Made by a program: the position numbers and the translations under genes
IMG/VR virus record: IMGVR_UViG_2778261056_000003
Direction: 5' to 3' (one strand)
Origin: a virus
Lineage: Duplodnaviria > Heunggongvirae > Uroviricota > Caudoviricetes
Length of the DNA stretch: 4,457 bases
Notes under the pieces: generated by a model
What the model saw: only the letters and a program-made list of their open reading frames with translations
Database searches by the model: none
Told to the model about the DNA's origin: nothing
Shown: in pieces, positions 692 to 804 of the stretch
Layout: every line of letters starts with the position of its first letter
How positions within the stretch are numbered: position 1 is the stretch's first letter

Positions 692-804
692 TAGTGCCTC
701 CGTTTATCATACAGAATAACTTTACCATTTTGATAAATCAACCGCAATGTAAATTTATCATATTGCGTATTTATCCATTTGCTAAATAGAGGGAAAATTG
801 TGAG
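692..804. promoter_or_regulatory. OR region: divergent PR (to cro) and PRM (to cI) with overlapping 17-bp operators
   Basis: 113-bp AT-rich intergenic region between divergent cro and cI. Operator candidates follow the palindrome TTTATC-N5-GATAAA: 703-719 TTTATCATACAGAATAA, 721-737 TTTACCATTTTGATAAA, 770-786 TTTATCCATTTGCTAAA, plus a half-site at 754-759. Candidate PR on the minus strand has -35 TTGCGG (complement of 742-747), a 17-bp spacer and -10 TAAAGT (complement of 719-724). Candidate PRM -10 is TAAATA at 783-788. Confidence 0.7.

What the first reader, a model, noticed from the sequence alone, without database searches (positions are those of the whole stretch)
692..804. OR architecture: three to four 17-bp TTTATC-N5-GATAAA operators interleaved with divergent promoters
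Near-palindromic 17-mers sit at 703-719, 721-737 and 770-786, with a half-site at 754-759. The 721-737 site lies in the spacer of the candidate PR (-35 TTGCGG, 17 bp, -10 TAAAGT on the minus strand). The 770-786 site overlaps the candidate PRM -10. Spacing is unlike lambda: two sites are adjacent with centres 18 bp apart, and the third is 49 bp away. This defines an immunity specificity that can be compared with known lambdoid immunity types.
Basis: seen in the sequence. Interest (0 to 1): 0.45.

Follow-up and report, generated by a model that had tools for sequence, protein, structure and literature searches.

The report
Phage H-19B-type repressor operators (OR)
This is the lysis/lysogeny switch of an E. 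coli prophage whose repressor is identical to that of the Shiga-toxin phage H-19B; the repeated 17-bp repressor sites are real, but this operator region was characterised experimentally in 2001, so the finding is correct and ordinary.

Summary
TTTATC-N5-GATAAA-type 17-mers lie at 703-719, 721-737 and 770-786. The "half-site" at 754 is the left half of a fourth full site, 754-770. Two more sites (2589-2605 and 2614-2630) sit on the PL promoter upstream of N.

The hexamer TTTATC occurs 8 times in the 254 bp of the two control regions, against 0.2 expected by chance.

The window is a lambdoid immunity region: cII, cro, OR, cI, two morons, OL/PL, N. Its cI is 100% identical and its Cro 97% identical to those of phage H-19B. 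Its OR differs from H-19B's at 3 of 191 bases. A review states that H-19B has four operators in OR (Shi & Friedman 2001).

Across 53 phages carrying the same repressor, the half-sites are almost invariant, while spacers and flanks vary.

Relatives in Pantoea and Sodalis keep three OR sites in the same places, but not 703-719. They also keep an OL3 that has decayed here.

Its PRM -10 probably does not. Comparative evidence favours -35 at 770-775, -10 at 793-798 and a start at or near the cI ATG.

Verdict: real, correctly interpreted, already known. Interest is low.

The parts
458..691 (-). cro (77 aa), first gene of the PR operon
   Evidence: ORF. 75/77 identical to H-19B Cro. Hits PHROG 35, a transcriptional regulator family. 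Annotated cro in BP-4795 and H-19B.
703..719 (.). Operator site 'a' (TTTATCATACAGAATAA). Covers about -7..+10 of PR. It is the extra, lineage-specific fourth OR site.
   Evidence: Two mismatches to the motif. The left half is invariant in 52 of 53 same-repressor loci, but the right half is polymorphic at 716-718. Absent from L054 and from the Pantoea and Sodalis relatives. Repressor binding is inferred.
719..747 (-). PR: -35 TTGCGG (747-742), 17-bp spacer, -10 TAAAGT (724-719) preceded by TG. Inferred +1 near G712.
   Evidence: Best minus-strand promoter score, 11.1. Same hexamers and the same operator offset as PL. The TTGC of the -35 and the -10 are conserved in relatives. The start site is not mapped here.
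721..737 (.). Operator site 'b' (TTTACCATTTTGATAAA). Spans -25..-9 of PR. Equivalent to lambda OR1.
   Evidence: One mismatch. Half-sites are invariant in 53 loci; only spacer position 729 varies. Conserved in position in all relatives.
754..770 (.). Operator site 'c' (TTTATCATATTGCGTAT), with a weak right half. Spans -51..-35 of the proposed PRM start. Equivalent to lambda OR2.
   Evidence: TTTATC and G765 are invariant. Variation falls at spacer positions 761 and 763 and at right-half positions 766 and 767. A full 17-mer is conserved in place in L054, Pantoea and Sodalis: TTTA[T/G]C-N5-G..TAT. The activating role is inferred from geometry.
770..786 (.). Operator site 'd' (TTTATCCATTTGCTAAA). 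Shares one base with site c and overlaps the PRM -35 and spacer. Equivalent to lambda OR3.
   Evidence: One mismatch. One rare variant (G781A) in 53 loci. Conserved in all relatives, always 48-49 bp from site b.
770..798 (+). Proposed PRM: -35 TTTATC (770-775), 17-bp spacer, -10 GAAAAT (793-798). Start at or near A805, giving a leaderless or near-leaderless cI mRNA.
   Evidence: Best plus-strand candidate in the window and at the same place in L054, under a crude PWM. GAnnAT is conserved 6 nt before the ATG in five lineages, with TGn in four. Not mapped; inference.
805..1509 (+). cI repressor (234 aa)
   Evidence: 100% identical to H-19B cI. Peptidase_S24, E 3.8e-16. HTH_3 at residues 23-67, E 0.005, below the Pfam cutoff. 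PHROG 4 transcriptional repressor.
2556..2572 (.). Decayed relic of a third left operator (AGAATCAATACGATATT), at the position where relatives have OL3
   Evidence: Relatives carry a good site 58 bp upstream of OL1. The window's equivalent has 5 of 12 mismatches and is polymorphic at 2556, 2558, 2565 and 2567.
2589..2605 (.). OL2 (TTTATCATTTTGCTATT). Spans -50..-34 of PL and overlaps the -35.
   Evidence: Entirely invariant in 51 loci, while 2565-2587 is highly variable. Conserved in all relatives.
2604..2632 (+). PL: -35 TTGCCA, 17-bp spacer, -10 TAAAGT. Inferred +1 near A2639.
   Evidence: Found by the promoter scan. PWM score 12.1. Lies upstream of N, downstream of the terminator at 2383-2404.
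2614..2630 (.). OL1 (TTTATCATTCCGATAAA), a perfect palindromic operator spanning -25..-9 of PL
   Evidence: Zero mismatches. Only spacer positions 2621, 2623 and 2624 vary. Present in H-19B and mEp506 and in relatives.
2977..3360 (+). N antiterminator, first gene of the PL operon
   Evidence: Pfam N_peptide, E 2e-15. Same length as the annotated H-19B N.

Best explanation
Region 692-804 is the right operator (OR) of a lambdoid prophage that carries the phage H-19B immunity type.

Operator: CI dimers (HTH N-terminal domain, S24 self-cleaving C-terminal domain) recognise a 17-bp operator, TTTA(T/C)C-N5-G(A/C)TAAA.

Four sites lie between cro and cI:
- Site b (721-737) sits in the PR spacer and -10, at -25..-9 like lambda OR1. 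It shuts off PR.
- Site a (703-719) covers the PR start and reinforces that repression.
- Site c (754-770) sits at -51..-35 of a weak PRM, like lambda OR2. It probably activates cI transcription.
- Site d (770-786) overlaps the PRM -35 and spacer. It probably shuts PRM off at high repressor levels or when Cro binds.

Two further sites (2614-2630 and 2589-2605) repress PL in the same geometry.

SOS-induced CI self-cleavage frees PR and PL.

Shown here: the sites, their enrichment, their conservation, the gene identities, and identity with H-19B.
Inferred here: which protein occupies which site, the PRM position, and activation from site c.
For: - Motif enrichment.
- The same operator-promoter offset at PR and PL, 4 nt after the -35.
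- cI 234/234 and Cro 75/77 identical to H-19B. OR is identical to H-19B and BP-4795 at 188 of 191 bases, and to mEp506 at 191 of 191.
- H-19B is reported to have four operators in OR (PMC8065619, citing Shi & Friedman 2001).
- Population footprint in 53 same-repressor loci: half-site positions are variable at 7 of 71, against 43 of 143 other non-coding positions (Fisher p=0.001). TTTATC halves are variable at 1 of 36. Variation falls in the N5 spacers.
- Sites b, c, d, OL1 and OL2 keep their positions in relatives with only 53-73% identical N-terminal domains.
- In the 17-kb H-19B record, hits at <=2 mismatches occur only at OR and OL.
- No RNA structure signal (z=-1.25) and no Rfam match.
Against: - No binding or transcript data could be generated here, and the primary H-19B paper is not held. 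I could not check that its four sites and its mapped starts are the ones listed.
- The right half of site a is polymorphic among same-repressor phages, and the site is missing in relatives. It could be weak or non-functional.
- The right half of site c matches the consensus poorly. Part of its conservation may belong to the overlapping site d.
- PRM rests on a weak promoter match (score about 5, against 11-12 for PR and PL) under an approximate PWM. The conserved purine-rich stretch could instead be a ribosome-binding site.
- The footprint test treats positions and related sequences as independent.
Confidence: 0.9

Rival explanations
1. OR has only three functional operators (b, c, d), as in lambda. 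The 703-719 match is a fortuitous operator-like sequence in the cro 5' leader that CI does not bind usefully.
For: Site a is absent in L054, Pantoea and Sodalis relatives that keep b, c and d. Its right half varies among same-repressor phages: GAATAA, GAACAA, GAGCAA, GAGCGA. One locus has T703C.
Against: H-19B is reported to have four OR operators, and no other candidate fourth site exists in the 113-bp region. TTTATC plus G714 is invariant in 52 of 53 loci, although neighbouring leader positions vary.
Confidence: 0.15
2. PRM is where the first reader put it, with its -10 at TAAATA 783-788 (TG at 780-781). Transcription would then start near 795, and site d would block the -10 rather than the -35.
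For: By analogy with PR and PL, whose -10 (TAAAGT) is built from the last four bases of an operator half-site. A TG lies one base upstream of TAAATA.
Against: In relatives the hexamer reads TAAATG or TAAACG, lacking the near-invariant final T. It is not among the top plus-strand promoter scores. It has no usable -35 at 16-18 bp.
Confidence: 0.2
3. The TTTATC repeats are sites for a host factor (for example DnaA, whose box TTATCCACA resembles TTATCCATT in site d) or simply AT-rich promoter sequence, not repressor operators.
For: Site d matches the DnaA box at 7 of 9 positions (box consensus from memory). The region is AT-rich.
Against: Only one of six sites resembles a DnaA box. Dinucleotide-preserving shuffles never reach the observed counts. 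The dyad symmetry with an 11-bp half-site offset, the occurrence only at PR/PRM and PL, and the drift of the half-site to TTTAGC in relatives with diverged HTH domains all fit a phage-specific dimeric HTH repressor.
Confidence: 0.02

Closest known systems
Phage H-19B OR/PR-PRM and OL/PL (Shi & Friedman 2001, Mol Microbiol 41:585; sequence AF034975)
   Same: cI is 100% and Cro 97% identical. OR is identical at 188 of 191 bases and all four sites are present. A review reports four OR operators for H-19B. The same immunity region occurs in BP-4795, mEp506, many Stx1a phages and more than 600 E. coli genomes.
   Different: Two substitutions in site a (T710C, T717C) and one next to the PR -35 (A741T). 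The moron genes between cI and OL differ. The window shows no stx context.
Phage lambda OR (OR1-OR2-OR3) and OL
   Same: Divergent cI and cro. 17-bp dyad operators. A site at -25..-9 of PR and of PL. A site at about -43 and another over the core of a weak PRM. cI probably starts at its ATG. cII, N, and SOS-cleavable CI are present. Lambda coordinates are from memory of J02459.
   Different: A different operator sequence. Four OR sites with centre spacings of 18, 33 and 16 bp instead of three at 24 and 23 bp. Sites c and d share a base. Only two functional OL sites. The C-terminal domain is of the 933W type, not the lambda type.
Phage 933W repressor and operators (Tyler et al. 2004; Koudelka lab)
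   Same: The C-terminal (oligomerisation and cleavage) domain is shared: 95% over residues 81-234 in loci L055-L083 (PMC3202840; PMC3430580). OL has only two sites.
   Different: A different N-terminal domain and unrelated operator sequences. The intergenic region is about 77 bp with three OR sites.
Unnamed prophage switches in Pantoea and Sodalis genomes (L084-L087) and IMG/VR contig L054
   Same: A homologous CI N-terminal domain (53-73% identical). The same b-c-d layout with 48-49 bp between b and d. The same OL1 and OL2/-35 arrangement.
   Different: The half-site is mostly TTTAGC. There is no site a. OL3 is intact. The Pantoea and Sodalis CIs have a different C-terminal domain.

Membership tests
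H-19B immunity type | Repressor (especially its DNA-binding N-terminal domain) identical or nearly identical to H-19B cI | tested here: met
   234/234 identical.
H-19B immunity type | Cro of the same type | tested here: met
   75/77 identical.
H-19B immunity type | The same operator sequences at OR and OL | tested here: met
   OR matches at 188 of 191 bases; the differences are at 710, 717 and 741. OL1 is identical in H-19B. The OL region is conserved in BP-4795 and mEp506.
H-19B immunity type | Functional homoimmunity: a lysogen excludes H-19B, and H-19B CI represses these promoters | not testable with these tools
   Needs a cross-immunity plating test or reporter assays.
Lambdoid CI/Cro switch | Divergently transcribed repressor and cro genes flanking a short control region | tested here: met
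   cro at 458-691 (-) and cI at 805-1509 (+), 113 bp apart.
Lambdoid CI/Cro switch | Repressor with an HTH DNA-binding domain plus a LexA-like S24 self-cleavage domain | tested here: met
   Peptidase_S24, E 3.8e-16. HTH_3, E 0.005 and 17.3 bits, below the 23-bit cutoff. PHROG repressor families match.
Lambdoid CI/Cro switch | Multiple dyad operators overlapping PR and PRM, and a second set on PL upstream of N | tested here: met
   Four sites at OR and two at PL, with matching geometry. Occupancy by CI or Cro was not tested.
Lambdoid CI/Cro switch | Accessory regulators cII and N flanking the switch | tested here: met
   Phage_CII, E 1e-33. N_peptide, E 2e-15.
Lambda-style three-site, pairwise-cooperative OR | Three sites spaced about 23-24 bp apart, allowing adjacent dimers to bind cooperatively | tested here: not met
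   There are four sites with centre spacings of 18, 33 and 16 bp. OL1-OL2 is 25 bp apart. Cooperativity itself is not testable. The related 933W repressor, which shares the C-terminal domain, is reported to be non-cooperative.
Lambda-style three-site, pairwise-cooperative OR | An OL3 site supporting long-range OL-OR repression of PRM | tested here: not met
   The OL3 position (2556-2572) is degenerate and polymorphic here, although it is intact in relatives. The candidate at 2517-2533 is also not conserved.

The most novel reading that the evidence does not exclude
The H-19B-type switch may be a '4+2' derivative of an older '3+3' layout.
- Relatives in Pantoea, Sodalis and an IMG/VR contig keep sites b, c and d plus OL1, OL2 and OL3.
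- The H-19B lineage has gained site a over the PR start and has let OL3 decay.
- PRM would be a weak, probably leaderless promoter, with site c at -43.

If the 2001 paper did not already show this, it would give a testable account of how a switch with a 933W-type (reportedly non-cooperative) C-terminal domain compensates for losing long-range OL3-OR3 control.
Probability: 0.45. Interest if true: 0.25.

Novelty: already known. Interest (0 to 1): 0.1.

Why it matters
The region identifies the prophage's immunity group as H-19B / BP-4795 / mEp506. That predicts which phages it excludes and how it is induced. The same switch controls many Stx1 phages, so its wiring bears on toxin-phage induction. 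It adds nothing fundamentally new, because the operator-promoter region of this immunity type has been studied experimentally. The comparative points (conserved b-c-d core, lineage-specific fourth site, decayed OL3, likely PRM position) are modest refinements.

Tried and rejected
- A third left operator at 2517-2533 (TTTATCCTGTCGAATTC). Rejected because its TTTATC and right half are polymorphic in 16-20 of 51 same-repressor loci.
- A minus-strand promoter TTAGCA(785-780)-17-TATGAT(762-757), found by the scan. Rejected as a by-product of operator half-sites. The common variants T761A and T763A destroy its -10.
- A second PR-like site, TTGATT(741)-17-TATTCT(718). Rejected because H-19B's T717C removes the -10 A.
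- RNA or cruciform structure from the 721-738 / 769-786 inverted repeat. The fold z-score is -1.25 and there is no Rfam hit.
- A word-indexed protein search with the CI N-terminal domain returned only fragments.
- Sequence searches of solved structures gave only marginal CI and Cro hits, plus a spurious pseudoazurin match.
- The primary papers are not held: Shi & Friedman 2001, Tyler et al. 2004, Koudelka et al. 2004. Several literature searches gave only a one-sentence summary of the H-19B operators.
- The 933W-type loci were inspected. Their control region is unrelated in sequence and length.

Full report
**What is in the window.** The 4457-bp window is a lambdoid immunity region whose + strand corresponds to lambda's leftward direction.
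- cII, 20-319 (-): Pfam Phage_CII, E 1e-33.
- cro, 458-691 (-).
- A 113-bp control region.
- cI, 805-1509 (+): Peptidase_S24, E 4e-16. The N-terminal domain hits HTH_3 at E 0.005, below Pfam's cutoff.
- Two unannotated moron ORFs, 1579-2372.
- A terminator, 2383-2404.
- A PL-like promoter, TTGCCA-17-TAAAGT, at 2604-2632.
- After a leader of about 340 nt, N at 2977-3360 (N_peptide, E 2e-15).

**Checking the observation.**
- With up to 3 mismatches, the motif TTTATC-N5-GATAAA occurs 12 times against 3.4 expected (0 of 200 shuffles reach this).
- The only matches with 2 or fewer mismatches are 703-719, 721-737, 770-786 and a perfect copy at 2614-2630, inside the PL spacer.
- The hexamer TTTATC, on either strand, occurs 8 times in the 254 bp of the two control regions. 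The expectation is 0.2 and the maximum in 1000 dinucleotide shuffles is 2.

**Identity.**
- The window's cI is 234/234 identical to the cI of Shiga-toxin-1 phage H-19B, and its Cro is 75/77 identical.
- The 191 bp around OR are identical to phage mEp506. They differ from H-19B and BP-4795 at three positions: T710C, T717C and A741T.
- The same immunity region is found in BP-4795, mEp506, dozens of Stx1a phages and more than 600 complete E. coli genomes. Two of those genomes match 440-1520 at 100%.
- The H-19B operator-promoter regions were analysed by Shi & Friedman (2001). That paper is not held. [quoted passage not shown]
- The H-19B and 933W repressors share their C-terminal domain (PMC3202840; PMC3430580; loci L055-L083). 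The 933W repressor is reported not to bind cooperatively.

**Which sites are constrained.** Fifty-three public loci carry the same repressor (98-100% identical) with about 20 OR haplotypes.
- Half-site positions of the six proposed sites vary at 7 of 71 positions. Other non-coding positions vary at 43 of 143 (Fisher p=0.001).
- The TTTATC halves vary at 1 of 36 positions (p=0.0005).
- Substitutions fall in the N5 spacers (710, 729, 761, 763, 2621, 2623, 2624), between sites, and in the leaders.
- Sites 721-737 (b), 770-786 (d), 2614-2630 (OL1) and 2589-2605 (OL2) are essentially invariant. OL2 abuts a highly polymorphic stretch, 2565-2587.
- Site 703-719 (a) has an invariant left half but a polymorphic right half (716-718).
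- Site 754-770 (c) varies at 766 and 767.
- This test treats positions and related sequences as independent, so the p-values are indicative only.

**Deeper comparison.**
- An IMG/VR contig (L054, cI 73% identical) and prophages in three Pantoea genomes and a Sodalis genome were examined. Their N-terminal domains are 53-63% identical, and the Pantoea and Sodalis CIs have a different C-terminal domain. All keep the same layout.
- Sites b, c and d sit at the same positions. The b-d start spacing is 48-49 bp in every lineage, and c and d always share one base.
- The half-site is TTTA[T/G/C]C, mostly TTTAGC in Pantoea and Sodalis. GCTAAA in the window's site d is therefore a family-typical half, not a defect.
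- Site c is a conserved full 17-mer with a consistently weak right half (GCGTAT, GCATAT or GAGTAT), not a lone half-site.
- Site a is absent outside the H-19B type.
- At OL, OL1 and OL2 with the abutting TTGCCA -35 are conserved everywhere. The relatives also have an OL3 58 bp upstream of OL1. The window's equivalent, 2556-2572, has 5 of 12 mismatches and is polymorphic.
- The H-19B type is therefore a 4+2 arrangement, apparently derived from a 3+3 one. This is inference.

**Promoters.**
It has a TG one base upstream of the -10, and it mirrors PL. In both, the operator begins 4 nt after the -35, and the -10 is made of the last four bases of the operator half-site plus GT.
- With +1 inferred at about 712 and about 2639, sites b and OL1 span -25..-9. 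This is the position of lambda OR1 and OL1 (lambda coordinates from memory of J02459). OL2 spans -50..-34. Site a spans about -7..+10.
In relatives it reads TAAATG or TAAACG, lacking the key final T, and it is not among the best-scoring candidates.
- The best plus-strand candidate, in the window and at the same place in L054, is TTTATC(770-775)-17-GAAAAT(793-798). Across five lineages GAnnAT is conserved exactly 6 nt before the ATG, with TGn upstream in four of them.
- That predicts a start at or near A805, a leaderless cI mRNA as in lambda. It places site c at -51..-35 (lambda OR2 is at -50..-34) and site d at -35..-19.
- The promoter is weak, scoring about 5 against 11-12 for PR and PL. This is as expected for an activated promoter. 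The PWM is my own approximation, and the conserved purine-rich stretch could instead be a ribosome-binding site for PRE transcripts.

**Mechanism (inferred from the lambda paradigm and the geometry).**
- In a lysogen, CI dimers on b (plus a) and on OL1/OL2 block PR and PL.
- CI on c probably stimulates PRM.
- CI at high concentration, or Cro, on d shuts PRM off.
- RecA-stimulated self-cleavage of the S24 domain releases repression.
- The extra PR-proximal site and the missing OL3 fit a repressor whose 933W-type C-terminal domain is reported not to support cooperative or looped binding. This link is speculative.

**Rivals.**
- A three-site OR with site a non-functional: confidence 0.15.
- Host-factor sites or chance AT-rich sequence: confidence 0.02.
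- RNA structure is excluded (z=-1.25; no Rfam hit).
- In the 17-kb H-19B record, matches with 2 or fewer mismatches occur only at OR and OL. In the 40-kb mEp506 genome, matches with 1 or fewer mismatches are OL1, b, d and one extra site in the PL operon.

**Verdict.** The finding is real and its interpretation essentially correct. It rediscovers the known, experimentally studied H-19B immunity region. Novelty: already known. Interest: about 0.1.

Noticed in passing
window 295-308 (+), with a -10 candidate near 324-329: TTGCTGTAACTTGC is a TTGC-N6-TTGC motif. It lies on the cI-direction strand, inside the first codons of cII (ATG at 319-317 on the minus strand). This is the expected place and form of a CII-activated PRE promoter.
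   Followed up: no
window ~441-449 (-): A boxA-like CGCTCTTTT lies between cro and cII on the PR-transcript strand. It is a likely nutR element; the boxB hairpin was not delineated.
   Followed up: no
window 2727-2745 and 2944-2963: A long-range inverted repeat of about 19 bp (TGAACTTTGGGGTGTGGTG / CACCACACCACCAAAGTTCA) brackets about 200 nt of the 340-nt N leader. It ends just before the N ribosome-binding site (GGAGG, 2966-2970). It could control N translation or be an RNase III site.
   Followed up: no
window 1579-2019 and 2016-2372 (+): Two overlapping ORFs with no Pfam hit occupy the rex position between cI and OL. One matches only PHROGs of unknown function. mEp506 carries HicA/HicB/HicC here, and BP-4795 carries three other ORFs, including one annotated as a HigB-family toxin. 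This looks like a variable moron slot expressed from the lysogen.
   Followed up: partly
window 2556-2572; L054 4636-4652; L087 4511-4527: Relatives have a third left operator 58 bp upstream of OL1. The H-19B-type sequence at that position is degenerate and polymorphic, so OL3 appears to have been lost in this lineage.
   Followed up: yes
L088 (mEp506) 4223-4239: A one-mismatch operator-like site (TTTATGCCAAAGATAAA) lies in an intergenic gap of the PL operon, far from OL. Seven further two-mismatch sites occur in the late genes. The genome total is 12 against 2 expected. This part of mEp506 is not in the window.
   Followed up: no
window 805-1060 (cI N-terminal domain): The H-19B-type CI N-terminal domain scores below Pfam's HTH_3 gathering cutoff (17.3 against 23 bits). 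A survey of Stx-phage CI proteins (PMC8951638) describes one clade as 'lacking the HTH domain' by Pfam. If that clade is this one, the absence would be a detection artefact. I did not check clade membership.
   Followed up: partly
L089 (E. coli ECONIH5) 6038-6421, equivalent to window 2977-3360: The RefSeq annotation of the identical prophage does not call the N gene. Only a 69-bp 'regulator, incomplete' pseudogene lies within it, and Cro is annotated as a hypothetical protein.
   Followed up: no
window 771-779: TTATCCATT within site d resembles the DnaA box TTATCCACA at 7 of 9 positions. This is probably coincidental.
   Followed up: no
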